The notes below the pieces were generated by a model, which worked only from the letters and a program-made list of their open reading frames with translations, ran no database searches and had not been told where the DNA came from. Below, one piece after another: positions 2,240-34,531 of a stretch of 64,000 nt of DNA. The position numbers and the translations under genes are program-made. The DNA comes from Candidatus Kapaibacterium sp. (GTDB lineage: Bacteria > Bacteroidota > Ignavibacteria > Kapaibacteriales > UBA2268): assembly GCA_013414795.1 (NCBI GenBank), contig CP058732.1, forward strand, positions 2,331,737 to 2,395,736. The letters are read 5' to 3'. Within the stretch, counting starts at the first letter, position 1; every line of letters starts with the position of its first letter.

Positions 2240-2321
2240 TTTATTCCCAGTAACATATGCAAAACTAATAGAAGTTTACGAAAATTTCTTAATTTTGAAT
2301 TTTATTTATTTGGCAAGGCTT

Positions 2322-4394: not shown

Positions 4395-4402
4395 CTTTTA
4401 TA

Positions 4403-10343: not shown

Positions 10344-10453
10344 ATAGCCAACCATTTTAAAATATTTGGAAAATAATATACAAAACATCAAATGCAAAAT
10401 ACAAAAAAATTACATATACATAAATTGTACCAAACTCCTGGCGGGTACGATTA

Positions 10454-12453: not shown

Positions 12454-14265
12454 CTAATTCTTTACTCCGATGAAATTATCAATCTGACTAATCAATTCTG
12501 AAATTTTCTCTATCAAAAGCCCTTTATTTTTTTCTTTTTCTTGCAAGACCATTTTCAATTTCGTCAATTCTTCGTTTAAATTTCGATACTCGAGTATTTT
12601 TTCATTATAAAGAATTTCGATTTTTTCTTTATCCCTTAATGCTTTCAAATAATTATCCTGAACATCATTTTTTTCTTTATTTAAAGCAAAAATCTTTCTT
12701 TGCAAATCGATTTTTTCTTCGCTCATTTGTTTATTCAATTCTTTCAACTCTTTGTTTATTTGCCTCATTGAATTCACTTCACCTTGCAATTTGTAAAATT
12801 CGTTCTTATATTGCATTAATTCCCGCAAGTTTTCATCTTTTCGAAGCAATTCAGATTTAGTTTTTTGCAATTCCTCCTCGGCTAATTTCGCTTTTTCTCG
12901 AAGTTCAATCAATTCTGAATTAAGGCTCTCAACTTGTGTATTTAAATCATCTATCGTAGTGCGGTAAATTTCTAATTGTTCAATAAGTTCACCTTGTTTG
13001 GATTGTCTACTCTTCAACTCGGCGTAAATTTTTTCCAATTCATTTTTCAAATTTCGATTCTCTTCTTCCAAATTTCTCATTTTAATATTTTTTTCTTCCT
13101 CGTCTGCTTGGAACTCTTTTATCTGATTGTCAAGTTTGAATCTTTCCTTTTCTTTGTTAGTAAGTTCAGTTTCTAATCCAGCAATTCTGTTCTTGTGAAA
13201 AACAATTTCCTGCTCGAGTTCTTCGATTTTTTTGGCGTTCTGCACAAGAACATCGTCAATTCTACTCTTCAACCGAAGATTTTCTTCTTGCAATGAACTA
13301 ACCTCGAATGTCAAATCCTCAATCTTTGTTACTATTTGCTTTAAATAGTTTAAATAATCTGATAAATTTTTCCCATTTATTTCAAATCCTAAATTAGACA
13401 AAATTGGAGTGGAAAAGATTTTTCCAAAAGAATCAATTAATTCCTGTTCCTTTTTCCTAAAAGTTTCTATTTGCTCATTCAACATTTGTATCTGGCTTGA
13501 AAGATGTTCAATTTCACGCTCCTTTTCAATCTTTTGAACAGCAGTCCTTTCAAGATTCTTTTCGAGTTCACTCGATTCGGAAAGCAATTGTTCGTATTGT
13601 GCTTTCAAATTATCATAGTCAATGGATTTCACCCGAAAAGTTTCAATCTCTGTTTTGTATTGTTTTAATTGCTCATTTTGCTCGCTATTCACTTTTTGCA
13701 ACTCAATAATCTTTGCTTCTAAAATTGGCAACTTCTTTTCTTTTTCTTCGAGTTGGATAATAACGTTTTCAAGTTCTGCAATTTTTTCTTTATAAGACAT
13801 TATCTCATCGTTCAATTGATTTATTCGCAAATTTTTTTGAACAATATCTTCTTGTGCGTGTTTAAGTTGCTCTTCGAGTTCTTTCAACTTTTCGTCGCTT
13901 TCAGAATATCCAAACAAACTTCCCTCGAGAAATTCCTTTTGCTTTTTATACTCCTCGTAATACATTTGCAGAAAATTGTTTTCCTCACGGAGTTCGGAAA
14001 TTACAGACTCGTATTTCTGAATTATGTCGGGGGAATAATTTTCCTCAATTGTTTTTAACTTTTCTTCTAATTGTTCAACTTTCGTTTCGAAATCTTGGAC
14101 TTTTAGGCGAAGCGACTGATTTTCCTGCTTCAACGCTTCATTTATTTCAACTTGTTTTTGGTACTTTTCGACGAAACCACGAATTGCAGTCCAAAGATTT
14201 TCAATAACGATTTGAAGATTCTGGCTGGGTTTTAGACTTTTGTCTTCAAAATTAATCTGTTCCAT
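12454..14265 (-). CDS. 603-aa coiled-coil protein (E/K/L/Q/N-rich heptad repeats throughout), function unknown
   Basis: No TM segment, signal peptide or catalytic motif. Heptad-like periodicity runs from residue about 30 to the end. Its stop lies 1 nt from the alr start. Confidence 0.6.
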   Translation of the reverse strand: MEQINFEDKSLKPSQNLQIVIENLWTAIRGFVEKYQKQVEINEALKQENQSLRLKVQDFETKVEQLEEKLKTIEENYSPDIIQKYESVISELREENNFLQMYYEEYKKQKEFLEGSLFGYSESDEKLKELEEQLKHAQEDIVQKNLRINQLNDEIMSYKEKIAELENVIIQLEEKEKKLPILEAKIIELQKVNSEQNEQLKQYKTEIETFRVKSIDYDNLKAQYEQLLSESSELEKNLERTAVQKIEKEREIEHLSSQIQMLNEQIETFRKKEQELIDSFGKIFSTPILSNLGFEINGKNLSDYLNYLKQIVTKIEDLTFEVSSLQEENLRLKSRIDDVLVQNAKKIEELEQEIVFHKNRIAGLETELTNKEKERFKLDNQIKEFQADEEEKNIKMRNLEEENRNLKNELEKIYAELKSRQSKQGELIEQLEIYRTTIDDLNTQVESLNSELIELREKAKLAEEELQKTKSELLRKDENLRELMQYKNEFYKLQGEVNSMRQINKELKELNKQMSEEKIDLQRKIFALNKEKNDVQDNYLKALRDKEKIEILYNEKILEYRNLNEELTKLKMVLQEKEKNKGLLIEKISELISQIDNFIGVKN

Positions 14266-17306: not shown

Positions 17307-18245
17307 ATGTCAAATTTTTTATACAAGTTTTCTATATTAATTATCGGAACAATTGTCTCGACCACTATCCCTCTTTACTCACAATGCGGTTGTTCCTCGA
17401 GCCAACAATTTCTTCCTCCACTCCACTGGCTTGGTTCAAGCGAAATTTCAATTTCCCAGAAAAAGCGCCTCCACCTCGATTTTATGTACAAATTCGCAAC
17501 GGGGAATAATTTGTACAAAGGCACCGAAATAGTTCCCTCCCAAACTGATTATAAATTTCACTTCATCGACTTTTTTTCTACTTATGGCTTGACAAACTAC
17601 ACATCAATAGACTTTTACCTCGACTATAACTTTCGGCTTCTTAATCAATATGGTTTCGATACCAAAGGCTACGGCTTCTCGAACGCTTCACTGGGGTTAA
17701 GACATACATTTTACGAAAGCGAGAACTCTGATTTGGTGATAAATGGTGGCTCTGGAATAAAAATTCCTTTGATGAAATTCAAACCAATAGAAGAGTATCC
17801 AATTATTTCGCAACCAACAAATGGCTCTTTTGGATTTTACGCTTTCGCATTGCTCCAAAAGTCAATTCCAAACATTTCCTTGAATCTTTTGTTGTATTCA
17901 AGATTTGATTACAACTTCAAAAACAATATTGATTACAAATTTGCCCCATCGATTTCCAGTTCACTTTTTCTTTCACGACGCTTTTCAACAAAGTTTGTAG
18001 CACTTGCCGAACTTCGCCACTCTTTTATGTTCCAAGATAAATATAAAGATACGACTTATCCGAACTCGGGGGCAAATTTGATTTTTTTAGTACCCAGATT
18101 AACTTTTATTTTCGATGAGATTAGCATTTCCCCGTATTTTGAACTCCCGATTTACCAAAATTACAAAGGAGAACAACTTGGAGCAAAATTTGCAATTGGT
18201 ATCAACTTTAATTATGTTTACAATTTTTCGAGACGAAAATTTTGA
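17307..18245 (+). CDS. predicted outer-membrane beta-barrel protein (hypothetical)
   Basis: Signal peptide MSNFLYKFSILIIGTIVSTTIPLYSQ, alternating aromatic and hydrophilic beta-strand patterns, and a C-terminal ...NFSRRKF with terminal Phe typical of OMPs. Confidence 0.5.
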   Translation: MSNFLYKFSILIIGTIVSTTIPLYSQCGCSSSQQFLPPLHWLGSSEISISQKKRLHLDFMYKFATGNNLYKGTEIVPSQTDYKFHFIDFFSTYGLTNYTSIDFYLDYNFRLLNQYGFDTKGYGFSNASLGLRHTFYESENSDLVINGGSGIKIPLMKFKPIEEYPIISQPTNGSFGFYAFALLQKSIPNISLNLLLYSRFDYNFKNNIDYKFAPSISSSLFLSRRFSTKFVALAELRHSFMFQDKYKDTTYPNSGANLIFLVPRLTFIFDEISISPYFELPIYQNYKGEQLGAKFAIGINFNYVYNFSRRKF

Positions 18246-18265
18246 ACAACTAAATTGGGGGCATT

Positions 18266-18745
18266 ATGAAAATCTTCTTTTCGTTTGCTTGCATAGTTAT
18301 TTCTTTGCTTTTCACTTTTCAACTTACCGCCCAAGACGGCAACCAAATTAAGATAAGAAAAGTAAAAAAGCAAAGCATCCGAAATGTCGACACCACCTCG
18401 AAAACTATTCAAATCCAGCAACTGAAAAATGAGGCAAAGGTCAAGATTCGCGAAGCCAAAGAGCGAGCAAAGGCAAAAATTCTTGAAGAAAAGGCAAAGT
18501 CGAAAGAAAGAATAAACTTAGCGAAAGAAAAAGCCCGACTTGAAGTCCAAAAGGCAAAGGAAAAAGCGAACAAAGAAGTTCAACAAGTAATCGAAAAAGA
18601 AAAAAAACATATGGAAAAGGTGAAAAAAGAAGCCAATTTAGAAGTCGATAAGGTTAGGAAAGAGTACAACCAGAAAATCCAAAAAATTCTACAAGAAAGC
18701 GCCAACCCAACAAAAAAGAAAAGCAAGGAAAAAGATAATCAGTGA
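18266..18745 (+). CDS. secreted Lys/Glu-rich coiled-coil protein (hypothetical)
   Basis: Signal peptide MKIFFSFACIVISLLFTFQLTAQ, then about 130 aa of K/E/A/Q heptads (KIREAKERAKAKILEEKAKSKE...). Confidence 0.55.
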   Translation: MKIFFSFACIVISLLFTFQLTAQDGNQIKIRKVKKQSIRNVDTTSKTIQIQQLKNEAKVKIREAKERAKAKILEEKAKSKERINLAKEKARLEVQKAKEKANKEVQQVIEKEKKHMEKVKKEANLEVDKVRKEYNQKIQKILQESANPTKKKSKEKDNQ

Positions 18746-18763
18746 CAAAACCTTGTCGATTTT

Positions 18764-19261
18764 TTGATGAACAAATTTGTCGAAAAAATACAGACCTTCG
18801 CTCGAAACAATTTATCTATTACAAAGCAAGAAACAATCTTTGTTGTTTTACTATTTCTTGCCCTTTTCATAGGATTATCGAACAAATTATTTAAATTTGA
18901 CAGCAACCAAAAAGCAACAGTTCAATTTATCCGCCGTTTGATAGACAGCATTGCCGAGGCGGAAAGAAAGACCTTCGTCGGAACGGATATTTATGGAAAT
19001 CCAATCGACACAAGTTTTGTCGATAAACCTTTTAAATCGGAATTCTCGAAACTCACCGAAAGTGATACAAATGTCAAAATCAATTTGAACACAGCCTCGC
19101 GCGTCGAATTGATGAGGTTGCCAGGCATTGGTGAAAAAACTGCCCAGCAAATAATCGAACTTCGCAAGCGTAAACCAATCCGAAAGAAAGAAGATTTGTT
19201 GGAAATCAAAGGAATTGGAAAGAAAAAACTTCAACGCATAGAAAAGTTCATATCTTTTTAA
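18764..19261 (+). CDS. comEA: ComEA-family helix-hairpin-helix DNA-binding competence protein
   Basis: N-terminal membrane anchor and a C-terminal HhH motif: INLNTASRVELMRLPGIGEKTAQQIIELR...LLEIKGIGKKKLQRI. Confidence 0.8.
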   Translation: MMNKFVEKIQTFARNNLSITKQETIFVVLLFLALFIGLSNKLFKFDSNQKATVQFIRRLIDSIAEAERKTFVGTDIYGNPIDTSFVDKPFKSEFSKLTESDTNVKINLNTASRVELMRLPGIGEKTAQQIIELRKRKPIRKKEDLLEIKGIGKKKLQRIEKFISF

Positions 19262-19295
19262 TTTGCATTTTCTTTTTTACAAAATTGAGGGAAGG

Positions 19296-20384
19296 ATGAA
19301 ACAAACTGTATTCAACCCAATTCATAAACAATTGGGTGCTAAAATGGTGGAATTCGCTGGCTTCGAAATGCCAATTCAATATCCGAAGGGAATCATCTAC
19401 GAACATCTCGCTGTACGAAAAAGCGTGGGTGTTTTCGATGTTACCCATATGGGCGAATTTGAAATTGTTGGTCCCGATGCATTAAACTTTGTGCAAAAAG
19501 TTACAACCAACGACGCAAGCAAACTTTTCCCAGGGAAAGTGCAATACTCTGCAATGTGTTATCATCACGGTGGAATTGTCGACGACCTTCTGGTTTACAA
19601 ACTTGATGAGAATAAATTTATGTTCGTTGTCAATGCTGCAAACATTGACAAAGATTATAATTGGTGCTTGGAAAACGCAAAAGATTTCAATGTAGAAGTA
19701 AAAAATATCAGCGATGAAATCAACTTACTTGCTGTGCAAGGTCCAAACTCATTGAAAACATTGCAAAAACTCACCGATGTTGACCTTGAAGAGATGAAAT
19801 ACTACACATTTACCAAGGGAAAACTTGCCGACATTGAAATGATAATATCCAGAACTGGCTACACTGGCGAACTTGGTTTCGAATTGTACTTCCGAGGCGA
19901 TTTTGATGTTGCAAAACAATTATGGGACGCAATTTTCGAGGCGGGCAAAGAATTCAACATCGAGCCCGTGGGTCTTGGCTGTCGAGACACTTTAAGGCTC
20001 GAAAAAGGATATTGTCTCTACGGAAACGATATAGACGAAACCACAAATCCCATTGAAGCGGGACTGGGTTGGATAACGAAATTGGAGAAAGGCAGTTTCA
20101 ATGGCTCCGATGTAATTGCAAAGGTAAAAGAGGAAGGACCAAAGAGAAAACTGGTTGGCTTTGTGGGTGAAACCGAGAAATTCATTCCAAGACACAATTA
20201 CAAGATATTCGCAAACGGAAAGGAAATCGGATTTGTAACAAGTGGAAACATTTCTCCAGTTTTGAATAAACCAATCGGTATGGGCTATGTTGCAACGGAG
20301 TATTCCAATCCAGACACAATAATTGAAATTGAATCACGCGGGAAATTGTTCCCGGCAAAAGTAGTCAAAATTCCATTTGTATAG
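19296..20384 (+). CDS. gcvT: glycine cleavage system T protein (aminomethyltransferase)
   Basis: [29 protein letters not shown]...[11 protein letters not shown] and a C-terminal barrel domain. A GGAAGG RBS precedes the ATG at 19296. Confidence 0.85.
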
Positions 20385-23888: not shown

Positions 23889-24908
23889 TTAAAATTGACT
23901 TAATACTCTCACATCGTTTGCATAAAACGTACGAATATCATCAATTCCCGTCAACAGCATAGCAACTCGCTCAATTCCTAATCCGAAAGCATAACCGGTG
24001 TATTCTTCGGGGTCGATTCCTCCCGCTTTCAAAACATTTGGGTGGACCATTCCACAGCCGGCAATTTCGAGCCAGCCTGTATACTTACAAACTCTACAAC
24101 CTTTTCCCTGGCAAAGGAAACAAGTTATATCCAATTCGGCGCTGGGTTCCGTGAATGGGAAAAAGGATGGACGAAAGCGAAAACGCAGATTTTCGCCAAA
24201 CATCCGACGCGAAAACTCAATCATTGTACCTTTAAGTTCGGCAAAAGTAACCTTATGATTAATGTACAGGCCTTCGATTTGATGAAATTCAGCCAAAGAA
24301 CGGGCGGAAATTGCCTCGTTGCGATAAACCCGACCTGGCATAATATATCGAATTGGTGGTTTGGTTGCGTGCATTATTCTGATTTGTACTGGGGATGTAT
24401 GCGTCCTTAAAAGCAGATTTTTGTCCGATTTGATGAAGAAAGTGTCTTGCATATCCCGCGCTGGATGGTCGGGCGGGAAATTCAAAGCATCGAAATTGTG
24501 GTAGCCGTCTTCGATATCTGGACCTTCGGCAACTTTGAACCCTAAACTAACGAAGACCTCGACCATCCTATCCATAGTTTGATAAATTGGGTGTCGATGG
24601 CCAATGTAATCAATTCGCCCGGGCAAAGTCAAGTCAATCTTTGGAACTTTTGTCTCTCTTTCGGCAATACTTTCGGAAAGTTCTTTAAAACGAGTTTCGG
24701 CATAATTACGAAGTTCATTAAGGAATTTTCCAACGATTGGCTTCTCCTCTTTGGGCAAATCTCTCATTCGGTCGAACAACTGCTGAATCTTGCCCTTCTT
24801 TACCAGGAAAATATTTCGAAACTTTTCTAAATCTTCTTTGGTGTGAAGATTTTCGATAAAAATTCTGATTTCTTCTTCTACTTTCTTTATTTCGTCTATC
24901 ATATCCAC
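23889..24908 (-). CDS. pheS: phenylalanine--tRNA ligase alpha subunit
   Basis: Class II aaRS motifs (FPFTEPSAELDI, GLGIERVAMLL) and an N-terminal coiled-coil arm. Confidence 0.9.
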   Translation of the reverse strand: MDMIDEIKKVEEEIRIFIENLHTKEDLEKFRNIFLVKKGKIQQLFDRMRDLPKEEKPIVGKFLNELRNYAETRFKELSESIAERETKVPKIDLTLPGRIDYIGHRHPIYQTMDRMVEVFVSLGFKVAEGPDIEDGYHNFDALNFPPDHPARDMQDTFFIKSDKNLLLRTHTSPVQIRIMHATKPPIRYIMPGRVYRNEAISARSLAEFHQIEGLYINHKVTFAELKGTMIEFSRRMFGENLRFRFRPSFFPFTEPSAELDITCFLCQGKGCRVCKYTGWLEIAGCGMVHPNVLKAGGIDPEEYTGYAFGLGIERVAMLLTGIDDIRTFYANDVRVLSQF

Positions 24909-24910
24909 AC

Positions 24911-24960
24911 AATATTAAAAACAAAAATAAGCGAAAGGAATAAAATTCGCTTTCGCTTAT
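24911..24960 (-). terminator. rho-independent terminator/attenuator between rplT and pheS
   Basis: Long hairpin ataagcgaaag(gaat-aaa-attc)g ctttcgcttat at 24927-24960. On the minus strand it is followed by ttttgttttt. It ends about 17 nt before the pheS ATG. Confidence 0.6.
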
Positions 24961-24986
24961 TGTATTTTTCGTCTACAACCCATAGA

Positions 24987-25334
24987 TTAATTCATAACAT
25001 ACTGGACTAATTTTGCAAAGTATTCGGGTTTGTTCATTGCGAAATCGGCAAGAATCTTGCGATTGATTTCAATGTTCTTCTTCTTCATCGCACCAATAAA
25101 TTTCGAATATGTGGTTCCATTCAAACGGCAAGCAGCATTGATTCGAACAATCCAGAGTCGACGAAAGTGCCTCTTCTTCAGTCTTCGATCACGATATTGG
25201 TATTGAAGAGCCTTTTCAATGTGATGTTTTGCAATAGTCCAGACGTTTTTTCTGCGTCCCCAAAAACCTTTGGCAAGTTTTAGGAACTTTTTCCTTTTTT
25301 CTCTTGATGCTACTTTGTTTACCGACCTAGGCAT
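24987..25334 (-). CDS. rplT: 50S ribosomal protein L20
   Basis: [30 protein letters not shown]..., typical L20 sequence and size. Confidence 0.92.
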
Positions 25335-25390
25335 AACCTCCTCCTTTTTTGTTAATGCTTAGGGGGAGCATCATCCCCTTTCGCAAAAAA

Positions 25391-25588
25391 TTAAGCAAGA
25401 CCTAACATTTTTTTAATTCTTGGAGCATCGCTTGGATGGACCAAGTCCTTTTTACGAAGATTTCTTTTTCGCTTTCGCTCTTTCTTTGTCAATATGTGGC
25501 TTCGATAAGCCTTCTCCCGCTTCAACTTTCCAGTTGCGGTAACTTTAAATCTTTTTTTTGCCGAGGACTTCGTTTTTAACTTTGGCAT
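25391..25588 (-). CDS. rpmI: 50S ribosomal protein L35
   Basis: [24 protein letters not shown]..., 65 aa basic protein. No infC precedes it in this window. Confidence 0.9.
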
Positions 25589-25652
25589 TTTTGTCCCTTA
25601 TTAAAATAAAGAGTTACAAAATTAAGAAAAAAGTTTAAAACAAAAAAATAAT

Positions 25653-26465
25653 TTATCTAATTAACATTAGCAGACTAATAGCCATTACAACCATACCCCC
25701 AACAAGTCCATAAATCGCAATGTGATGTTCGCCGAACTTTTCAGCAGTTGGCAATAATTCGTCCAGCGAAATAAACACCATAATTCCAGCAACCCCAGCA
25801 AACATTATCCCAAACAAAAATGGATTGAGAAAATTTCGCAAAAGAATGTACCCGACGATTGCACCAACTGGTTCGGCAAAACCAGACAAGAATGAATAGA
25901 CAAAAGCCTTTTTCCTATTTTGTGTGGCATAATAAATTGGAACGGAAACAACAATGCCTTCGGGTATGTTATGTATTGCGATAGCGATTGCTATACTTAC
26001 ACCAAGAAAAGGGTCGCTCAATGTTGCAAAGAAAGTTGCAAGTCCTTCGGGAAAATTATGTATCGTTATTGCAAAAGCAGAAAGAACGCCAGTTCGCAAC
26101 AATTTTCGGCTTTGGTTTATGTAGTTAACATCTTGTCTATTGATGACACCTATTTCGTGAGGGTTTTCAAAAGAGGGAACGAATCTGTCGATTATAGCAA
26201 TGAGAGCAACACCACCAAAAAAAGACAGTATCGTAAACAAGTATCCATTGAAATCCCCAGCAAGTGAAACAAGCGAATCCTTTGCCTTTGGAAACATTTC
26301 CACCATCGAGACATAAATCATCACCCCCGCAGAAAACCCAAGCGAACCAGAAAGGTATTTTGGGCTAAAGTCTTTCGAAAGAAAAGCAAGTAAACTTCCA
26401 ATACCAGTAGAAATTCCAGCAATGAAAGTTAACGCAAAAGCCAAAAGAACATTATTCTCTGTCAT
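25653..26465 (-). CDS. zupT: ZIP-family zinc transporter
   Basis: About 8 TM helices with metal-binding motifs IHNFPEGLA and HNIPEG. Confidence 0.8.
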   Translation of the reverse strand: MTENNVLLAFALTFIAGISTGIGSLLAFLSKDFSPKYLSGSLGFSAGVMIYVSMVEMFPKAKDSLVSLAGDFNGYLFTILSFFGGVALIAIIDRFVPSFENPHEIGVINRQDVNYINQSRKLLRTGVLSAFAITIHNFPEGLATFFATLSDPFLGVSIAIAIAIHNIPEGIVVSVPIYYATQNRKKAFVYSFLSGFAEPVGAIVGYILLRNFLNPFLFGIMFAGVAGIMVFISLDELLPTAEKFGEHHIAIYGLVGGMVVMAISLLMLIR

Positions 26466-26572
26466 AATTAACCGATTTTTTAAGAATTTTAGACGAACAA
26501 CACGAAATTTAGTTAAAATAACGAAAAACTAAAATTAAACTTACGCAAAATCGTAAAGATTTTTTTCAATTT

Positions 26573-27175
26573 TTGATTATTATGATTGAATACGTAACTT
26601 GTTTTTGTGCTTCAAGCAACCGAGTGGATAAATATTATTTGGAATCCGCCTACAACCTTGGTTCCATTTTAGCAAGAAATAGCAAGACTGTTATCTATGG
26701 CGGAGGAAAAGTTGGGCTAATGGGTAGCCTTGCACAAGGAGTGCTCGACAACGGCGGAAAAATCATCGGTGTAATTCCTAAATTTATGCAAAAGTATGAA
26801 CTTGGACACAACGGCATTACCAAACTCATCGAGGTCAATACAATACACGAACGTGAAGAATTGATGATTAACAAAGCAGATTGCATTGTCGCACTTCCTG
26901 GTGGGACTGGCACCTTCGAGGAACTTCTTCAAGCGCTCACCTGGAAACGCTTGAAATTAATTCCTACACCTATAATCATTGGCAATTTAAAAAATTACTA
27001 CAATCCTTTGATTCAACAATTAAACAAAGCAGTCGACGAAAATTTTATGCGAAATGAACATCGGAAACTATGGGATGTTGCAAACACGGTGGAAGAAATT
27101 TATGATATCATTCGATACTACGACTCGCACAATGAACAAATCAAGTTATTTGATGTACAACCAAATGTAACTTAA
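26573..27175 (+). CDS. LOG-family protein (cytokinin riboside 5'-monophosphate phosphoribohydrolase-like, TIGR00730-type)
   Basis: VFCASS..., GGGKVGLMG and PGGTGTFEEL motifs. Confidence 0.75.
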   Translation: MIIMIEYVTCFCASSNRVDKYYLESAYNLGSILARNSKTVIYGGGKVGLMGSLAQGVLDNGGKIIGVIPKFMQKYELGHNGITKLIEVNTIHEREELMINKADCIVALPGGTGTFEELLQALTWKRLKLIPTPIIIGNLKNYYNPLIQQLNKAVDENFMRNEHRKLWDVANTVEEIYDIIRYYDSHNEQIKLFDVQPNVT

Positions 27176-27218
27176 TCCAACCTTTTTCGTTAAATTACTA
27201 TTTGATTTTTTCTCGATT

Positions 27219-30005
27219 ATGCTGAAAAAACTTTCAAATAGTAGTTTCAAAATCTTGCTTATCCTTTTTGCAATTTCCCTTGTCGGATTTGGAATTTATT
27301 ATCAAGTTCAATCTATTTCACTTCCCACTGATGAAAATATATTTTCAGACCCACCTTCGAGGGTAATCAACACCGAACCAATTCTTGGTTTTCAAGAAAT
27401 AGAAAACCAAAGACTGGAAGATACAGTCCAACCAGGAAGTTTGATTGTTAACATTGACGGAATTGATATTATCGATACAAATGTTTTTAGATTTGCAATT
27501 AACAATGCTTCGGCTGTTTTAAAATTAAAGATTTTCGACAGGCAGAAAAATATCCTTCGCTCAGTCTTTGTTTCCAAAGACGCATTATTAAAAGGGAAAT
27601 TCGAGTACTTGAAATCCGCAGTTGTTATCTATTGGGTTAAATCTGGGGGTACGAGCGAGTCAGCCGGTTTAAAACCTGGCGACATTATTGTTTCTATTAA
27701 CAATCGAGAATTTGCAACTGCCCGTGAAGCCGACCAAATTCTAATCAAATCGAACCCCGAAAAACCATTGGTTTACAAAATACTACGTGGTGCCAAATTA
27801 ATCGAAAAAAAAGTACAACTTACCACTCTCAATATTACTTTTGACATTATTCTTCGCTATCTGATATTCGCAATATTCCTATTCTTTGCACTTTTCCTTG
27901 GATTGAAACATTCCGAAGCATTTCCAATCCGTCTTTTAAGTTGTTCCTTCTTGTTCATATCGATTATTTTCCTTTCGGTTTTTTCACGTACTGGAGAAAA
28001 CACATTTTTGGCTCGTTCCTGGTTTCTCATCTTCTGGTTTTCGTTAAGTTTTTCATTTGCCTTCTTTTCCCACTTTCTCCTTTATTTTCCAGTGGAGCAA
28101 AACAAACTTATTTCAAAAAAATTTGTCGTTGGAACGATATATCTTTTAACCGCATTGGTTTTTCTGTTTTTCATTTTCTTAACTAATTTAAAATCAAATT
28201 ACTTAATGAATTTGCTTTCAAATCTTGCTTTCGCACCAATTGTCGGCTATAGACTATTTTTAAATCTTGCCTTCAAAAAGCACTTAAATCCAGACCAAAG
28301 GAACATTTCCAAAGGACTTAAGAAATATTTCTGGTTTGTCATTGCAATTGTCATCGCATTTTTGCTATCGACTTACAAATTTCCTCAACTTACATATGAA
28401 ATTACTCTATTCTTTTACACTGCAATTGCATTTTTCCCAATTCTGTTGTTCTACTTGTTAAACAAATACAATTTCTACGGCTTTGCTTATCGAATTCGTC
28501 GAAATCTTTTGTACTTCGCCTCTCGGGGAGTTCTCGATTTTGTTTCTATTGCAATCATAATTTTTGGTCTGTATTTACTTAGCATCACTACAATTAAATT
28601 TCCTAACTTACATCTTGCTGGAACCAGAATCGAAGTTCTGAACCGACCTCTGCCACCAGAAAAAAATCTACAATACGAAAAGATAGCAATTATGCTTTTT
28701 TCTTTGGTTTTTATCAGCGTGATTATTCTATCAAGAAACAAAATAAATAAGTATTTGCACAAAAAGTTCCATAGAGCACGATTTGACTACAAAAAGACCG
28801 CAAACGACTTGTCCGAACTAATTATAAGAAATATCAATTTAAATGACTTAGCGAGAAATGTTATAAAAGAACTCGAAAACACAATGCTTTTAAAGAAAGC
28901 GGGGCTTTTAATTTTCCGAAATGATAAACTGTGCTGTATCGACTTTTTCAATGAAAACGATAATCTTTTGATTTCAAATATTGCGGACAATTTTCAATTA
29001 ATCCAGCAAGTGACAGCACAAGCAAGCACAATTCTTCCTATTGAAATTACTCCAGCAAAAATAAAGTCTGCTATAAAAGAAGGAAATTATCAATTTATCC
29101 AGCCAATCAGATACCAAAACAAAATCGTTGGCTGTTTGCTATTGGGAGAAAAACTCTCCGACACAAAATACTCCCAAGAAGATTTTGAATTCCTTGAAAT
29201 TATTGCCAAAAATATTGCCATCGCAATAGAAAACTCGTTCCTTGCAGAGGAACTTGCCAAACAAGAACGTTTGAAACAGGAGTTGGAAATTGCACAGCAA
29301 ATCCAATTGGCTTCATTGCCAAAAGAAATGCCCAAACTGAAGGATTTATCAATTTCTGCAATTACCATCCCAGCATATGAAGTCGGTGGGGACTTCTTCG
29401 ATTTTCTCCACAACGACGGAAGCCTAACTATCGTCGTTGGCGATGTAAGTGGAAAAGGGACTTCCGCTGCACTCTATATGTCCAAGTTTCAAGGAATTTT
29501 AAGAACTTTAAATGAATTCAATCTCCCTTTGAAAGATTTGGTCGCAAAAGCAAACGACTTACTAACCCAAAATATTGAAAAAAATTATTTCATCTCGGCA
29601 ATCCTCTGCCAATTCGACACCAAGAATTGCGTTGCCAATCTAATTCGTGCAGGACATCTCGGTTTATACTATTTCTCCATTTCAACTGGCAGGGTTCAAA
29701 AAATTTTGCCTCGTGGCTTGGTACTTGGTGTTTTTCAAGGAGACAAATTTTCCAGTACAATCGAAACAGAAACAATTCCATTTCAAAAAGGGGATTGCTT
29801 TGTTTTTGTCACCGATGGAGTCGTTGAAGAAATAGAGGAAAACAAGTTGGTATCGAAAGAACACCAACTCGTAGAAGTCATACAGCAAAATTATCAACTT
29901 GAAGCAAAAGCGTTGACAGAGAAAATACTGACAGAAGTTTGTTTCGCTTCACAAAACGATACATTATACGACGACTTGACAATTCTTGTTGTCAAACCGA
30001 CATAA
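27219..30005 (+). CDS. membrane-bound PDZ-GAF-PP2C (SpoIIE/RsbU-type) serine phosphatase
   Basis: 928 aa. N-terminal anchor, PDZ domain (GLKPGDIIVSINNREF), roughly 10 TM helices, a GAF-like region, and a C-terminal PPM domain (EVGGDFFDF...VVGDVSGKGTSAALYMS...FVTDGVVE). Confidence 0.75.
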   Translation: MLKKLSNSSFKILLILFAISLVGFGIYYQVQSISLPTDENIFSDPPSRVINTEPILGFQEIENQRLEDTVQPGSLIVNIDGIDIIDTNVFRFAINNASAVLKLKIFDRQKNILRSVFVSKDALLKGKFEYLKSAVVIYWVKSGGTSESAGLKPGDIIVSINNREFATAREADQILIKSNPEKPLVYKILRGAKLIEKKVQLTTLNITFDIILRYLIFAIFLFFALFLGLKHSEAFPIRLLSCSFLFISIIFLSVFSRTGENTFLARSWFLIFWFSLSFSFAFFSHFLLYFPVEQNKLISKKFVVGTIYLLTALVFLFFIFLTNLKSNYLMNLLSNLAFAPIVGYRLFLNLAFKKHLNPDQRNISKGLKKYFWFVIAIVIAFLLSTYKFPQLTYEITLFFYTAIAFFPILLFYLLNKYNFYGFAYRIRRNLLYFASRGVLDFVSIAIIIFGLYLLSITTIKFPNLHLAGTRIEVLNRPLPPEKNLQYEKIAIMLFSLVFISVIILSRNKINKYLHKKFHRARFDYKKTANDLSELIIRNINLNDLARNVIKELENTMLLKKAGLLIFRNDKLCCIDFFNENDNLLISNIADNFQLIQQVTAQASTILPIEITPAKIKSAIKEGNYQFIQPIRYQNKIVGCLLLGEKLSDTKYSQEDFEFLEIIAKNIAIAIENSFLAEELAKQERLKQELEIAQQIQLASLPKEMPKLKDLSISAITIPAYEVGGDFFDFLHNDGSLTIVVGDVSGKGTSAALYMSKFQGILRTLNEFNLPLKDLVAKANDLLTQNIEKNYFISAILCQFDTKNCVANLIRAGHLGLYYFSISTGRVQKILPRGLVLGVFQGDKFSSTIETETIPFQKGDCFVFVTDGVVEEIEENKLVSKEHQLVEVIQQNYQLEAKALTEKILTEVCFASQNDTLYDDLTILVVKPT

Positions 30006-30007
30006 AA

Positions 30008-30337
30008 ATGGAGAACAAAGACATTTACCAAAAAATTTTCGACATTGTACGCCAAATCCCTGTTGGCAAGGTTACTACCTATGGTCACATTGCAAGAGCA
30101 ATAGGAATAGGGATGTCAGCAAGAATGGTTGGATGGGCTTTAAACTCGCTTGCATTTCAACAGACAGATGTCCCAGCCCATAGAGTTGTCAATCGACGAG
30201 GGGAATTAACTGGAAGGAGGTATTTTCCCACTCCAAACTATATGAAAGAACTTTTGGTTTCGGAAGGAGTCTCGTTTATTGGCGATGCTGTGGATTTAAA
30301 CAAGCACCTTTGGATTCCAGAAATTTCCCAAAAATAA
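30008..30337 (+). CDS. alkyltransferase-like protein (MGMT/Ogt DNA-binding fold lacking the catalytic Cys)
   Basis: MENKDIYQKIFDIVRQIPVGKVTTYGHIA...PAHRVVN. The canonical PCHR motif carries Ala in place of Cys. The ATG at 30008 lies 2 nt after the phosphatase stop. Confidence 0.65.
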   Translation: MENKDIYQKIFDIVRQIPVGKVTTYGHIARAIGIGMSARMVGWALNSLAFQQTDVPAHRVVNRRGELTGRRYFPTPNYMKELLVSEGVSFIGDAVDLNKHLWIPEISQK

Positions 30338-30362
30338 AAAGGGGCTTCAAAGCCCCTCGACT
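30338..30362. terminator. bidirectional rho-independent terminator
   Basis: ggggctt caa agcccc hairpin. On the minus strand (clpC) it is followed by tttttattttt. Confidence 0.7.
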
Positions 30363-30379
30363 TAAAATCTTCAACAGTA

Positions 30380-32950
30380 TTAATTCATATCGGGATAGTC
30401 TTTATTGATACCACCTTCGACAGGATTGTCCTCGAAAAGAATATTATCCAACTTTATGTCGCTGATTTCTTCCTTAACAATTTCTGGTTCTACGAACTCA
30501 AATCTCAATTTTTTCTTTGAATCATCCAGATAGGCAACAATTTTACTTCCTCGTTTAACTCTGCCTGCAAGGAGTACTTCGGCAAGTTCATCTTCAACAT
30601 ACTGCATTAAAGCACGTTTCAAAGGACGAGCACCAAATTTTTCGTCGTAGCCTTTTTCGACAAGGAAGTCCTTTGCTTCCTGAGACAATTCCAAAGTAAG
30701 TTCCTGGTCTTTCAATCTCTTTCGAAGTTCTTCAAGTTGTATATCTATTATTTGATAAATATGTTCTTTGGTTAACTTTCGGAAGATTATGAAATCGTCG
30801 ATTCTGTTTATGAACTCTGGATTGAACAATCTCTTGACTGCCTCTTCAATCGAAGACTTGATTGTTTGGTATTCATCCTCATTTGTGGGTTCGACAAAAC
30901 CAAGTTTCGAGCCAATTTTCAAATCCCTTGTACCAACATTGGAAGTCATAATTATAATTGTATTTTTAAAGTCTACCCTTCTACCAAGCCCATCAGTAAG
31001 GATACCATCGTCAAAAACTTGTAAGAGAATATTAAACACATCGGGATGTGCTTTTTCAATTTCATCGAGCAATACAATGCTGTATGGTCTACGGCGAACT
31101 TTTTCCGTAAGTTGACCGCCTTCCTCGTAACCAACATATCCCGGAGGAGCACCAACAAGACGCGAAACTGTGAATTTCTCCATATACTCGCTCATATCGA
31201 TTCGAATAAGTGCATCTTCCGTATTAAACAAAACACGAGCAAGGGCTTTTGCCAATTCTGTCTTTCCTACACCAGTTGGTCCAAGGAACATAAACGAACC
31301 AATTGGGCGGCGTGGGTCTTTCAATCCAGCACGAGCCCGTCGTATAGCCTTTGAAAGATGGTCGATTGCTTCGTCTTGCCCGACAACCATCTTCTTCAAC
31401 TCATCGGGTAGTTTAAGGAGTTTTTCCGTTTCGCTTTCCGCTATCTTATTGACAGGGATTCCAGTCATCATAGCAACCACATCGGCAACATCATCTTCGG
31501 TGACGGGGAAATATGTTTCGCTCGATTTGATTTCCCACTCCAACTTTGCTTTCTCCAAGTCGGCTTGCAATTTCTTTTCAAGGTCGCGCAATCGAGCAGC
31601 CTCTTCGAAATTTTGACTTTTGACAACAAAGTTCTTTTGCCGACGAATTTCTTCTATTTGTTCTTCAAGTTCTATAATGTTCTTTGGAACGCTAATGTTT
31701 GCAAGATGAACTCTTGCCCCAGATTCATCCAAAACATCAATTGCTTTATCTGGGAAATATCTATCGGTGATATACCTATCTGAAAGCCTAACGCAAGCCT
31801 CTATTGCTTCGGGAGTATATTTGACATTGTGGTGTTCTTCATATCTGTCTTTAATTTTTTCCAATATTTCGCGAGTCTCTTCGGGTGTTGGTGGGTCTAT
31901 CAAAACTTTTTGAAATCTACGTTCGAGAGCTCCGTCCTTTTCGATGTATTGTCGATATTCATCCAGAGTAGTTGCGCCAATGCATTGGATTTCACCCCGC
32001 GAGAGAGCAGGTTTGAAGATATTGGAAGCATCGAGAGAACCAGAGGCACCGCCAGCCCCCACAATTGTGTGCAACTCATCGATGAAAAGAATGACGTCCT
32101 TGGCTCGTTCAAGTTCGTTCAAAAGTGCCTTCATTCGCTCTTCGAATTGACCTCGATATTTGGTCCCAGCAACAAGCGAAGCCAAATCCAAACTGACTAT
32201 TCGTTTATCGAGCAAAGTTCGTGGCACTTTTCGTTGTACAATACGCAAAGCAAGCCCTTCGACTATTGCAGTTTTTCCAACGCCAGGCTCACCAATCAAA
32301 ACTGGATTGTTCTTTTTGCGACGAGCAAGGATTTGCGAAACTCGCTGGATTTCCTTTTCTCGACCAATAACGGGGTCGAGTTTGTCTTCCATAGCAAGTT
32401 TCGTTAGGTCTCGTCCAAAATTATCTAAAACAGGTGTCTTAACTTTTTCCTTCATAGAAAACCTCGTTTGTTTAGAAGAAAAAGTAGAACCGTGTGGGGA
32501 TTGCTCGGAAGTTCGACCACTTAAGATATTTTCTAATTCGGTTCTAACTTTGTCGAAATTCACATTGAAATCTTCAAGTATTTTCGACGCTTGCGATTCT
32601 TTGTCTCTTAACATTGCAAGAAGAATGTGTTCAGTTCCAACAATATCATTTTTATACGCTCTTGCTTCGATTTCGCTTAACCGCAAAATCCGTTCCACTT
32701 GTTTGCTCAAAGGAAGAGTTTTGGTTGGGCTTCCGATGGAATGCCCTTTGAATTTATCTTCGATATGCTCGCTTAATTTTTGCAAGTCGACGCCAAGATT
32801 TTTGAGAATCTTGACAGCAATTCCTTCGCCTTCCCGTATCATTCCGAGCAGAATATGCTCGGTTCCAATATAATCATTGCCTAATTTCAAGGCTTCTTCT
32901 TGACTATATCGGAGTACGTCGTGAACTCTATTTGAAAATTGACTTCCCAT
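30380..32950 (-). CDS. clpC: ATP-dependent Clp protease ATP-binding subunit ClpC-type (Clp/Hsp100 AAA+ chaperone)
   Basis: Two Clp_N repeats, two Walker A boxes ([16 protein letters not shown]), and a short UVR-like middle domain ([15 protein letters not shown]), which fits ClpC rather than ClpB. Confidence 0.8.
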
Positions 32951-33006
32951 TACTCACATAAATATTGAATTCAATGAAAGAGACGAAGTGAATATTTTTT
33001 TATTTG

Positions 33007-33807
33007 TCAATCACCAAAATCGATCAGGAATTGCTTTTCGGATTTCGCTATCGAAATGATTCCCGAGAGGACAAGATTTTTCCGATAATACTTCCTCTCG
33101 TAGTTCCAATTTTGGTATTTGGTCTTAAAATACTCGAACCCACCACCAGTAAACACAATTGGAATTGTTTCTTCTCCAAATCTTTTTCTGCGGATTTCTT
33201 CCAAAATGTAAAGAAGTCCGCCCCAAATTGAATTCTGAATACCACTCGAAATGGCTCGCTCTGTGGAAATTTCCAGAAAATCATCAAAATCTTCATTAAT
33301 AAGTTTATTAACTTTCAACAACGATGTATTTGCCTGCAATGATTTCAGTTGTGTTTCTGGACCAGGAAAAATCAATCCGCCAACGAAATTTCGCTCCTCG
33401 TCGACGCAGTTAATTGTAACTGCTGTCCCAAAGTCTACTGTAATGAGTGGAGGAGCAAATTCTTCCATAGCCCCGATTATTCCAAGAATTCTATCAGTGC
33501 CTATCCAATGGTAATTGTATAGATTCAATTTTTTTTGCTTGAAAATTAAATCTTTGATATTATAAATGTATACATTTGGTTGTGATTTAAGAAAATCGAT
33601 TATAGAATTAGATTGTTCTATGTTAACACTTGAAAATAACACACGCAAAGGGGTTTTAATTTTCGAAAAGAAGAACTTTTCGAACTCTGTCAACAAATTT
33701 TGATTATATCGAAACGACTTGAACACATTTCGATAAAGAATTTTTGCCCGACTGTTTCCAAAGTCGATTGCAAGTGTTTGGTCTAAAAATTTATCCTTCG
33801 AGTTCAT
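33007..33807 (-). CDS. coaX: type III pantothenate kinase
   Basis: LAIDFGNSRAK (Bvg accessory factor fold), GTDRILGIIGA and FTGGGF motifs. Confidence 0.75.
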   Translation of the reverse strand: MNSKDKFLDQTLAIDFGNSRAKILYRNVFKSFRYNQNLLTEFEKFFFSKIKTPLRVLFSSVNIEQSNSIIDFLKSQPNVYIYNIKDLIFKQKKLNLYNYHWIGTDRILGIIGAMEEFAPPLITVDFGTAVTINCVDEERNFVGGLIFPGPETQLKSLQANTSLLKVNKLINEDFDDFLEISTERAISSGIQNSIWGGLLYILEEIRRKRFGEETIPIVFTGGGFEYFKTKYQNWNYERKYYRKNLVLSGIISIAKSEKQFLIDFGD

Positions 33808-34531
33808 ATCTTATTGAGTCCCCATCGCTTATCAACAATTTTTCATTATTGTTAGCAACCGCAATAAGTCTTCCAATTGAATCCATCCCTTCAACTTTGC
33901 AAAGTAGTTGACGATTGACAACAAAAATCTCTTTTCCAATGATATTCAACTTGTTTTTCCAAATTTGAAAAATTTCGTCTGGGAAAAGTTCCATCAACCT
34001 CTCGATTTCTGATATTAAATGATTCACTATATCCTCCACCTTGAAATCATATCCAAGCATTCGAAGAGAAATAGCGGTTTCGCTCAATTCTTTGGGAAAT
34101 TCTTTCTGATTTACATTTATGCCAATACCTAAAACAGTCGAAACACACAAATTCCCAACAAATTGGTGTTCTACAAGAACCCCAGAAATTTTCCGAAACT
34201 TGGAATCTTTCGTTTTAGCATAAATGTCGTTGGGATATTTTAAAGCATATTGGACAGTTGGAGTGATTTTTACCAAAGTATTGTATACTGCAAGAGCACC
34301 AAGCCCTTGAAAATATGCTACCTCCTCGAAGAGCCTTAAATTTGGATGTTTCACACCAAAAGAAAGGTAAACATTTTGTGCATATTCGCCCAGCCATTGA
34401 TTCTTGTTTCTTCCTCTGCCTTGAGTTTGAAAATCGGCAGTTACAACCACACAGTTGTGCTTCTGAAGAAGTTCCTTTGCGTAGTCGTTTGTTGATGTCA
34501 AACGTTCGAAATGATATCTTTGGTAAATCAT
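33791..34531 (-). CDS. birA: biotin--[acetyl-CoA-carboxylase] ligase
   Basis: QTQGRGRNKNQW motif (GRGRxGRxW). No N-terminal HTH, so class I. Overlaps coaX by 17 nt. Confidence 0.8.
   Translation of the reverse strand: MIYQRYHFERLTSTNDYAKELLQKHNCVVVTADFQTQGRGRNKNQWLGEYAQNVYLSFGVKHPNLRLFEEVAYFQGLGALAVYNTLVKITPTVQYALKYPNDIYAKTKDSKFRKISGVLVEHQFVGNLCVSTVLGIGINVNQKEFPKELSETAISLRMLGYDFKVEDIVNHLISEIERLMELFPDEIFQIWKNKLNIIGKEIFVVNRQLLCKVEGMDSIGRLIAVANNNEKLLISDGDSIRYELEG

What the first reader, a model, noticed from the sequence alone, without database searches (positions are those of the whole stretch)
27219..30337. PDZ-polytopic-GAF-PP2C phosphatase co-transcribed with an alkyltransferase-like protein
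The 928-aa protein combines a periplasmic PDZ domain, about 10 TM helices, a cytoplasmic GAF-like domain and a SpoIIE/RsbU-type PP2C domain. This is an envelope-sensing Ser/Thr phosphatase. No partner-switching genes (STAS, anti-sigma) are nearby. Instead a small ATL/MGMT-fold gene starts 2 nt after its stop. Coupling of an envelope signalling phosphatase with a DNA-alkylation damage sensor is not a described arrangement.
Basis: partly seen in the sequence, partly recalled or inferred. Interest (0 to 1): 0.55.

Follow-up and report, generated by a model that had tools for sequence, protein, structure and literature searches.

The report
Membrane PDZ-GAF phosphatase with passenger ATL gene
A membrane-bound signalling phosphatase and a small DNA-damage-flagging protein really are packed into one conserved three-gene operon in a group of Kapaibacterium-like bacteria, but relatives that lost the phosphatase kept the other two genes, so the pairing looks like shared transcription, not a new signalling-to-repair pathway.

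Summary
Window 27219..30005 (+) encodes a 928-aa protein with one TM helix, two periplasmic PDZ-like domains, nine more TM helices, a GAF domain, a long helical linker and an RsbU/SpoIIE-type PP2C domain. An ATG at 30008, 2 nt after its stop, opens a 109-aa Cys-less (PAHRV) alkyltransferase-like (ATL) gene. No STAS, RsbW or sigma genes were found among 48 window ORFs.

The adjacency is not unique. It is part of a cassette, LOG (26582..27175) – phosphatase – ATL. All nine lineages with an intact orthologue of at least 40% identity have it, even where both flanks differ, and the junction runs from +2 to −17 nt.

The evidence argues against obligate functional coupling:
- The phosphatase decayed to a frameshifted pseudogene in two species and was cleanly deleted in a third. 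LOG and ATL stayed intact and adjacent in all three.
- Fifteen full-length orthologues at 28–34% identity, from a family of at least 200 clusters, have no ATL or LOG nearby.
- ATL orthologues outside the clade sit behind PFK or beside NUDIX.

Best reading: a clade-specific operon of independently acting genes. The phosphatase is an uncharacterised variant of sensor-linked PPM phosphatases, and its substrate is encoded elsewhere.

The parts
26582..27175 (+). LOG / TIGR00730-family gene (197 aa from the ATG at 26582; the ORF listing starts it at a TTG at 26573). First gene of the conserved cassette.
   Evidence: Pfam Lysine_decarbox E 3.8e-38 and LDcluster4. NCBIfam TIGR00730, 156 bits against a cut-off of 96. 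The GGGxxGLMG and PGGTGTFEE motifs are visible in the sequence. Orthologues are 197 aa and lie upstream of the phosphatase in every cassette locus.
27219..30005 (+). 928-aa tandem-PDZ / 10-TM / GAF / PP2C phosphatase gene.
27237..27314 (+). TM helix 1 (residues 7-32), running N-in to out.
   Evidence: AF2 helix. Hydropathy peak 2.17 and a K-rich N-terminus, MLKKLS.
27336..27575 (+). PDZ-like domain 1 (residues 40-119). Degenerate and not detected by Pfam.
   Evidence: Profile A3 against PDB sequences hits the DegQ/DegP PDZ and the RseP-homologue tandem PDZ at E 3e-6 to 3e-4. The AF2 model shows a beta-rich fold here.
27600..27815 (+). PDZ domain 2 (residues 128-199).
27840..28769 (+). Nine-helix membrane domain (residues 208-517). 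It carries the conserved motif HFLLYFPVEQ (285-294) and a short outside hairpin, KFPNLH..GTRIEVLNRPLPPEKN (460-483).
   Evidence: AF2 helices, hydropathy and invariant columns H285, Y289, P291, P462, G468, E472 and E487. No Pfam family matches this part.
28788..29168 (+). Cytoplasmic GAF domain (residues 524-650).
29175..29315 (+). Long helical linker (residues 653-699) between GAF and PP2C.
   Evidence: A single AF2 helix. This is the most conserved stretch of the family, EELAxQERxKxELEIAQxIQ. It has the same position as the coiled-coil linker of RsbU, RsbP and RsbZ (PMC12143880).
29346..29999 (+). PP2C/PPM catalytic domain (residues 710-927), RsbU/SpoIIE type.
30008..30337 (+). 109-aa alkyltransferase-like (ATL) gene with Y25, R39 and P56-A57-H58-R59-V60. 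Last gene of the cassette.
30339..30358 (.). GC-rich hairpin between the ATL gene and the convergent clpB gene (30380..32950, -). It has a T-run on the minus strand and an A-run before it on the plus strand. It is the likely end of both transcripts.
   Evidence: Terminator-like site found; sequence.

Best explanation
The locus is a same-strand, three-gene operon, LOG - phosphatase - ATL. It arose in one clade of Kapaibacterium-like Bacteroidota and is inherited as a block, but its three products most likely act independently.

The phosphatase (inferred mechanism): it is a membrane-embedded RsbU/SpoIIE-type PPM phosphatase.
- Its two periplasmic PDZ domains probably bind exposed C-terminal or unfolded peptides of envelope proteins, as the PDZ domains of DegS, DegP and RseP do.
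- The signal would pass through the nine-helix membrane domain to the cytoplasmic GAF domain and the 45-residue helical linker.
- The linker would then control dimerisation and metal loading of the PP2C domain. This is the linker mechanism shown for RsbU and proposed for GAF-linked PPM phosphatases.
- The active enzyme would dephosphorylate a phospho-Ser/Thr protein encoded elsewhere in the genome.

The ATL (inferred from family membership): it is a standard Cys-less single-domain alkyltransferase-like protein that flags O6-alkylguanine for nucleotide excision repair. It is transcribed, and probably translationally coupled, as the last gene of whatever operon it sits in.

Shown here: the domain architecture, active-site conservation, operon geometry, conservation of the cassette, and independent losses of the phosphatase.
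Inferred: the ligand, the signalling route, the substrate, and the independence of function.
For: Architecture.

The linker mechanism is described as general for GAF, PAS, REC and HAMP-linked PPM phosphatases (PMC12143880).

Operon geometry:
- The LOG-phosphatase gap is 43 nt and the phosphatase-ATL gap is 2 nt.
- No plus-strand terminator-like site lies at either junction. The only strong hairpin follows the ATL gene.

Cassette conservation in nine lineages with an intact phosphatase (40-59% identity to the window protein):
- Window, L001, L002, L161, L163, L164, L165, L171 and L174.
- Junctions range from +2 nt to a 17-nt overlap.
- Flanks differ on one or both sides in L001, L002, L163, L164, L165 and L171.

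Independence of the three genes:
- L168 and L172 are two species (86% nucleotide identity in LOG). Both carry multi-frameshifted phosphatase remnants between intact LOG and ATL genes.
- L167 has LOG followed by ATL after 26 nt, with no phosphatase. It nests among cassette-bearing lineages in NJ trees.
- Fifteen full-length orthologues at 28-34% identity, each with at least 1.6 kb of downstream sequence, have no ATL, no LOG and no shared neighbour.
- The PDZ-membrane module occurs in at least 209 clusters at 50% identity. All ten sampled have the same PDZ...SpoIIE architecture.
- ATL orthologues outside the clade overlap the end of a PFK gene (L173) or sit 4 nt from a divergent NUDIX gene (L169, L170).
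Against: - The cassette survived rearrangement of both flanks in several lineages, and its junction is tight or overlapping. That pattern is what selection for co-expression produces, so some functional link cannot be excluded.
- No lineage was found with an intact close orthologue (40% identity or more) that lacks the ATL.
- No substrate, STAS protein or kinase was identified, so the phosphatase's pathway is unknown.
- The NJ trees rest on about 300 aligned residues and have no support values.
- Whether the L167 genome carries the phosphatase elsewhere is unknown.
Confidence: 0.62

Rival explanations
1. True functional coupling. The phosphatase controls the ATL (or LOG) protein, for example by dephosphorylating it or by sequestering and releasing it as a non-STAS partner. 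Envelope stress would then tune alkylation-damage handling.
For: - The adjacency is conserved in all nine lineages with an intact close orthologue, with junctions from +2 to -17 nt.
- No canonical partner-switching genes lie nearby.
Against: - The ATL and LOG genes stay intact after phosphatase decay (L168, L172) or deletion (L167).
- The ATL is far more conserved (68-85% identity) than the phosphatase (40-59%). It belongs to a broad orthologous family that sits next to unrelated genes elsewhere.
- Distant phosphatase orthologues never have an ATL neighbour.
- No ATL phosphorylation is mentioned in the ATL review (PMC10779285).
Confidence: 0.08
2. LOG and ATL are the functional pair, forming a modified-purine handling module. 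LOG would cleave damaged nucleoside monophosphates while the ATL flags O6-alkylguanine in DNA. The phosphatase would be an unrelated gene that came to lie between them.
For: - LOG and ATL remain adjacent and intact whenever the phosphatase is lost (L167, L168, L172).
- In two other Kapaibacterium-like genomes the ATL sits 4 nt from a NUDIX hydrolase gene, another nucleotide-processing enzyme.
Against: - Only one clade shows LOG near the ATL.
- L173 has the ATL behind PFK, with no nucleotide enzyme nearby.
- The pseudogene lineage branches first in the trees, so the ancestral state of the clade already had the phosphatase between the two genes.
- Retention of LOG-ATL adjacency after a deletion is the default outcome and needs no selection.
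- LOG activity on alkylated nucleotides is speculation.
Confidence: 0.15
3. The adjacency is a chance juxtaposition peculiar to this genome.
For: None found.
Against: The cassette is present in nine intact and two decayed lineages from independent assemblies.
Confidence: 0.01

Closest known systems
RsbU / RsbP / RsbZ-type PPM phosphatases (general stress response, partner switching)
   Same: - Conserved metal-binding Asp motifs.
- A sensor domain joined to the catalytic domain by a long helical linker. C. difficile RsbZ also uses GAF domains (PMC12143880).
   Different: - Integral membrane protein with a periplasmic tandem PDZ.
- No RsbV/STAS, RsbW or sigma-factor gene in the 48 window ORFs scanned.
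- Substrate unknown.
Bacillus subtilis SpoIIE
   Different: SpoIIE has no PDZ or GAF domain, and its linker lacks the RsbU-type helix. No similarity of the membrane parts was detected here, though it was not specifically tested. The organism is a Gram-negative-type Bacteroidota without sporulation genes nearby.
Pseudomonas aeruginosa SiaA (membrane-anchored PP2C of the SiaABCD module)
   Different: SiaA has a HAMP domain and no PDZ or GAF. It is encoded with its kinase and substrate (own knowledge). No such genes flank this locus.
PDZ-based envelope-stress sensors DegS, DegP/DegQ and RseP
   Same: Periplasmic PDZ domains. The first domain's profile hits the DegQ PDZ and the tandem PDZ of the A. 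aeolicus RseP homologue. NCBIfam gives weak PDZ-region hits to the DegP, DegS and HtrA models.
   Different: The output is a cytoplasmic phosphatase, not a protease. There is no protease domain or HExxH motif. Peptide binding was not tested.
Alkyltransferase-like proteins (S. pombe Atl1, E. coli Atl/YbaZ, V. parahaemolyticus vpAtl)
   Same: Single MGMT C-terminal-type domain with no N-terminal domain. HTH with Arg finger (R39) and Tyr (Y25). No acceptor Cys. Atl1 E 2.8e-16 and vpAtl E 2.6e-10. Family features follow PMC10779285.
   Different: The acceptor position is Ala, not the more usual Trp. Close orthologues carry Cys or Phe at that position.
LOG / TIGR00730 family (cytokinin riboside 5'-monophosphate phosphoribohydrolase-like)
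   Same: Passes the TIGR00730 cut-off (156 vs 96 bits) and the Pfam Lysine_decarbox cut-off.
   Different: Well below the equivalog cut-off for the cytokinin-activating enzyme (103 vs 300 bits). Substrate unknown.

Membership tests
PPM/PP2C phosphatase, SpoIIE/RsbU subfamily (PF07228) | Sequence match to the family profile above the curated threshold. | tested here: met
   128.3 bits against a cut-off of 25, residues 733-926 covering profile positions 2-190 of 192.
PPM/PP2C phosphatase, SpoIIE/RsbU subfamily (PF07228) | PP2C fold. | tested here: met
   [not shown]
PPM/PP2C phosphatase, SpoIIE/RsbU subfamily (PF07228) | Metal-coordinating Asp residues in the conserved motifs. | tested here: met
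   D725 (EVGGDFFD), D742 (GDVSGKG), D866 (TDGV) and D918/D919 (DDLT) are invariant in 12 orthologues. Assignment of these motifs to metal binding rests on my knowledge of RsbU and SpoIIE.
PPM/PP2C phosphatase, SpoIIE/RsbU subfamily (PF07228) | Mn2+/Mg2+-dependent phosphoserine/threonine phosphatase activity. | not testable with these tools
   Needs an enzyme assay.
Partner-switching module (RsbU-RsbV-RsbW / SpoIIE-SpoIIAA-SpoIIAB) | A STAS-domain substrate and an anti-sigma kinase encoded with the phosphatase or known in the genome. | tested here: not met
   No STAS, HATPase_c_2 or sigma-factor domain in 48 window ORFs. No conserved neighbour in 18 distant orthologue loci. The rest of the genome could not be searched.
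PDZ domain | Profile match above threshold. | tested here: met
   Domain 2: PDZ_6 40.9 bits (cut-off 27), PDZ_2 35.7 (27) and PDZ 27.5 (23.2). Domain 1 is supported only by the orthologue profile against PDB PDZ sequences, E 3e-6.
PDZ domain | Periplasmic location and binding of peptide C-termini. | not testable with these tools
   Location is inferred from the 10-TM topology and the charge distribution. Binding was not tested.
GAF domain | Profile match or GAF fold. | tested here: met
   [not shown]
GAF domain | Small-molecule ligand (cyclic nucleotide, haem, bilin or other). | not tested
   Pocket residues were not analysed.
Alkyltransferase-like (ATL) protein | MGMT C-terminal-type DNA-binding domain only, with no N-terminal domain. 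| tested here: met
   109 aa. DNA_binding_1 covers residues 6-88. The protein aligns end to end with the 116-aa Atl1.
Alkyltransferase-like (ATL) protein | HTH with Arg finger and the conserved Tyr used for base flipping. | tested here: met
   Y25 and R39 align with Atl1 Y25 and R39. The feature list comes from PMC10779285.
Alkyltransferase-like (ATL) protein | Acceptor Cys of PCHRV replaced by another residue. | tested here: met
   PAHRV (A57). Of the 120 closest homologues, 43 keep Cys, so the orthologous group as a whole is mixed ATL and Cys-bearing.
Alkyltransferase-like (ATL) protein | Binds O6-alkylguanine DNA and recruits UvrA/UvrC. | not testable with these tools
   Biochemical property.
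LOG / TIGR00730 | Profile match above threshold and the PGGxGTxxE motif. | tested here: met
   TIGR00730 156 bits against a cut-off of 96.35. PGGTGTFEE is read at about 26898-26924.
Operon (co-transcription of LOG, phosphatase and ATL) | Same strand, short or overlapping junctions, no internal terminator, and conserved order across genomes. | tested here: met
   Gaps of 43 and 2 nt. No plus-strand terminator-like site at either junction. The order is conserved in nine lineages. Transcription itself was not tested.

The most novel reading that the evidence does not exclude
LOG - phosphatase - ATL could be a functional purine-centred stress cassette. LOG would make or destroy a nucleobase-derived ligand that the phosphatase's GAF domain reads together with the periplasmic PDZ input. 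The ATL, or LOG itself, would be a non-STAS target or partner of the phosphatase. This would link envelope stress to handling of alkylated purines.
Probability: 0.07. Interest if true: 0.7.

Novelty: new variant of a known kind. Interest (0 to 1): 0.3.

Why it matters
- The phosphatase family (tandem periplasmic PDZ, polytopic membrane domain, GAF, PP2C) has at least 200 clusters at 50% identity. These occur in Bacteroidota, including Ignavibacteria- and Kapaibacterium-like lineages, and in some Acidobacteriota bins. No paper in the searchable library describes it.
- It would be a route by which PDZ-sensed envelope signals reach Ser/Thr phospho-signalling instead of regulated proteolysis.
- The ATL adjacency is a useful cautionary case. 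A tightly packed operon, conserved across rearranged flanks, still shows independent gene loss. Conserved adjacency within one clade should therefore not be read as functional coupling.

Tried and rejected
- Foldseek against afdb50 was not available on the machine.
- An Rfam scan of 24000..34000 at E up to 0.1 found nothing, so no riboswitch or leader is evident.
- The sigma-70 promoter scan gave 15 sites against 11.7 expected. That is not informative, and Bacteroidota promoters are not covered by the scan.
- All-against-all clustering of neighbours of 18 distant orthologue loci found no shared neighbour gene.
- Literature searches for PDZ+GAF+SpoIIE and for ATL gene neighbourhoods found no description.
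- I considered that the broken phosphatase in L168 was an assembly error. I rejected this because a second species (L172, a different data source) is also broken at different points, while all flanking genes are intact.
- I considered a link between the acceptor residue (Ala vs Cys) and presence of the phosphatase. I rejected this because Cys forms (P0033, P0036) also follow intact phosphatase genes.
- A multimer model of the phosphatase with the ATL could not be run with the tools.
Full report
**Observation**

The window has about 38% G+C. The 109-aa protein encoded at 30008..30337 is 100% identical to an NCBI protein from a 'Candidatus Kapaibacterium sp.' MAG. That genus belongs to the Bacteroidota.

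ORF 27219..30005 (+) encodes 928 aa. Its TAA stop ends at 30005 and an ATG follows at 30008. Both start codons are supported by orthologues that align from residue 1.

**Anatomy of the large protein**

Pfam finds SpoIIE/PP2C at residues 733-926 (E 4e-37) and PDZ at 128-201, both above threshold. It finds only a sub-threshold fragment of GAF at 622-672.

An AlphaFold2 model built on 12 orthologues has a mean pLDDT of 81. It shows these elements in order:
- a TM helix (7-32)
- a beta-rich domain (40-119)
- the PDZ domain (128-199)
- nine further TM helices (208-517), with a short hairpin (464-473) before the last one
- an alpha/beta domain (524-650)
- one long helix (653-699)
- the PP2C domain (710-927)

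Hydropathy and charge distribution fit a topology with the N-terminus inside, the PDZ region outside and GAF-PP2C inside.

The GAF assignment is confirmed three ways:
- The orthologue profile of residues 518-705 matches GAF structure 3o5y at E 2e-9 across the domain, plus the DevS, Nlh1 and phytochrome GAFs.
- Distant family members pass the Pfam GAF thresholds.

The first beta-rich domain is a degenerate second PDZ. Its profile hits the DegQ/DegP PDZs and the tandem PDZ of an RseP homologue at E 3e-6 to 3e-4.

The membrane part matches no Pfam family. It carries strongly conserved motifs: HFLLYFPVEQ and the outside hairpin.

**The small protein**

It has a DNA_binding_1 domain (E 3e-22). The best solved relatives are S. 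pombe Atl1 (E 2.8e-16) and V. parahaemolyticus Atl. Tyr25 and Arg39 are conserved, and Ala57 replaces the acceptor Cys (PAHRV). These are the features that define ATLs in the review PMC10779285.

Among the 120 closest homologues the motif is PAHRV in 69, PCHRV or PCHRI in 43 and PFHRV in 7.

**Surroundings**

Upstream on the same strand, after a 43-nt gap, lies a LOG/TIGR00730 gene (26582..27175). Downstream lies a convergent clpB (30380..32950), separated from the ATL gene by a GC-rich hairpin (30339-30358).

Forty-eight window ORFs were scanned with Pfam. They are housekeeping genes (pheS/pheT, rplT, recA/recX, argS, SurA-like PPIases, two OmpR-type response regulators and others). None has a STAS, RsbW-type or sigma-factor domain. 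No Rfam element lies nearby.

**Is the adjacency conserved?**

Only 12 full-length homologues were found by the word-indexed search. Their contexts, together with the genome and metagenome scans, give a clear picture.

Every intact orthologue of at least 40% identity whose context could be read has the order LOG - phosphatase - ATL. These are the window, L001, L002, L161/L162, L163, L164, L165/L166, L171 and L174. The phosphatase-ATL junction is +1 or +2 nt in six of them. It is an overlap of 8, 14 or 17 nt in the other three.

Flanks vary:
- The window, L161 and L174 have clpB downstream.
- L163 has a SIS-domain gene downstream, and L164 has small unknown genes followed by methylmalonyl-CoA mutase.
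- L165 has an M48 peptidase upstream and a different block downstream.
- L171 has SpoVR upstream and a methyltransferase downstream.

The conserved unit is a three-gene cassette.

**Is the adjacency functional?**

Four observations argue that it is not obligatory.

1. ATL-centred look-ups found L168 and L172. These are two species (86% nucleotide identity in LOG) from different data sources. In both, the space between intact LOG and ATL genes holds only phosphatase remnants, spread over several reading frames with different break points.
2. In L167, LOG is followed by the ATL gene after 26 nt with no phosphatase at all. In NJ trees of ATL and of LOG+ATL, L167 nests among cassette-bearing lineages and the pseudogene lineage branches first. 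These trees are short and have no support values. The ancestor of the clade therefore probably had the cassette, and the phosphatase was lost at least twice while both neighbours stayed under selection.
3. Fifteen full-length orthologues at 28-34% identity (L003-L010, L081-L086, L093), plus three shorter relatives at 24-28%, have no ATL or LOG within their flanks. All 15 have at least 1.6 kb of downstream sequence. They share no neighbour at all. An exhaustive HMMER search with the PDZ-membrane half finds 209 clusters at E up to 1e-10, nearly all 900-970 aa long. All ten sampled have PDZ plus SpoIIE. The architecture is thus a sizeable family, and only one small branch of it carries the ATL neighbour.
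4. ATL orthologues at 57-66% identity in other Kapaibacterium-like genomes lie behind a PFK gene with an overlapping start (L173) or 4 nt from a divergent NUDIX gene (L169, L170). The ATL looks like a small gene that rides on whatever transcript is available.

**Mechanism**

For the phosphatase I commit to the following model.
- The periplasmic tandem PDZ senses exposed peptide termini of envelope proteins. This is by analogy with DegS, DegP and RseP and was not tested here.
- The signal passes through the membrane domain to the GAF domain and the long helical linker.
- The linker controls dimerisation and activation of the PP2C domain. This mechanism was shown for RsbU and proposed as general for GAF-linked PPM phosphatases (PMC12143880).
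- The substrate is a phosphoprotein encoded elsewhere.

The ATL most likely works as other ATLs do, flagging O6-alkylguanine for excision repair (PMC10779285). LOG is a nucleotide N-glycosidase-type enzyme of unknown substrate.

Rival readings are kept at low probability. They are direct control of the ATL or LOG by the phosphatase, and a LOG-ATL purine-damage pair with the phosphatase as an insertion.

**Comparison and novelty**

The protein is a member of the SpoIIE/RsbU PPM family by sequence, fold and active-site motifs. It cannot be filed as part of a partner-switching module, because the defining partners were sought nearby and not found.

A PDZ input to a PPM phosphatase is not described in any paper I could find. 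I therefore rate it a new variant of a known kind. The ATL is an ordinary Ala-type ATL. The phosphatase-ATL 'coupling' is a clade-limited operon arrangement and not a new system.

**Verdict**

- The functional interpretation is only partly supported.
- Interest is modest at 0.3. It rests mainly on the uncharacterised phosphatase family and the clean example of independent loss within a conserved operon.

Noticed in passing
window 30008..30337 and homologues P0016-P0135: Within this tight family of single-domain MGMT-fold proteins, the acceptor residue switches among Ala (69), Cys (43) and Phe (7) in the 120 closest homologues. 'ATL' and potentially active Cys forms are therefore interleaved among close relatives.
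   Followed up: partly
L168:3500-5990 and L172:3640-5860: The phosphatase gene between intact LOG and ATL genes is broken into pieces in several reading frames in two related species. The remnants have diverged beyond megablast detection, while LOG stays 86% identical at the nucleotide level.
   Followed up: yes
L167:5375-6360: LOG is followed directly by the ATL gene (26-nt gap), with no trace of the phosphatase. This ATL has a Cys acceptor and a 10-residue N-terminal extension.
   Followed up: partly
L173:4994-6336; L169 and L170:5355-6315: Outside the cassette clade the ATL gene overlaps the end of a phosphofructokinase gene (L173). In L169 and L170 it lies 4 nt from a divergently transcribed NUDIX hydrolase gene.
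   Followed up: no
L088:5842-10880: Two tandem paralogues (838 and 841 aa) of a shorter version of the PDZ-membrane-GAF-PP2C protein lie head to tail with overlapping stop and start.
   Followed up: no
window 28071..28100 and 28596..28667 (residues 285-294 and 460-483): The membrane domain carries two very conserved motifs, HFLLYFPVEQ and KFPNLH..GTRIEVLNRPLPPEKN (a predicted outside beta-hairpin). No Pfam family covers them. They could be a ligand site or a PDZ docking site.
   Followed up: no
window 7434..10397 (-), 12454..14265 (-), 48518..49774 (+): Three large ORFs (987, 603 and 418 aa) have no Pfam match at E up to 1e-5.
   Followed up: no
window 17307..20384 (+) and L165:8469-11622: A four-gene block lies 7 kb upstream of the cassette in the window but directly downstream of it in L165/L166. 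It consists of a 312-aa unknown, a 159-aa unknown, a ComEA-like HHH protein and, in L165, a GCV_T-family gene (the matching 373-aa window ORF was not scanned). This illustrates local rearrangement around the cassette.
   Followed up: partly
window 2211..5686 (+): Two adjacent parvulin-type PPIase genes. One is 727 aa with several rotamase domains; the other is SurA-like and 427 aa. Both are envelope-folding factors, encoded 21 kb from the PDZ phosphatase.
   Followed up: no
L001 record title: The closest genome-collection locus (54% identity, full cassette plus the ZIP and L20 genes) is labelled 'uncultured Hyphomicrobiales bacterium'. This is probably a mis-binned or mislabelled contig, given its synteny with the Kapaibacterium-like window.
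   Followed up: no
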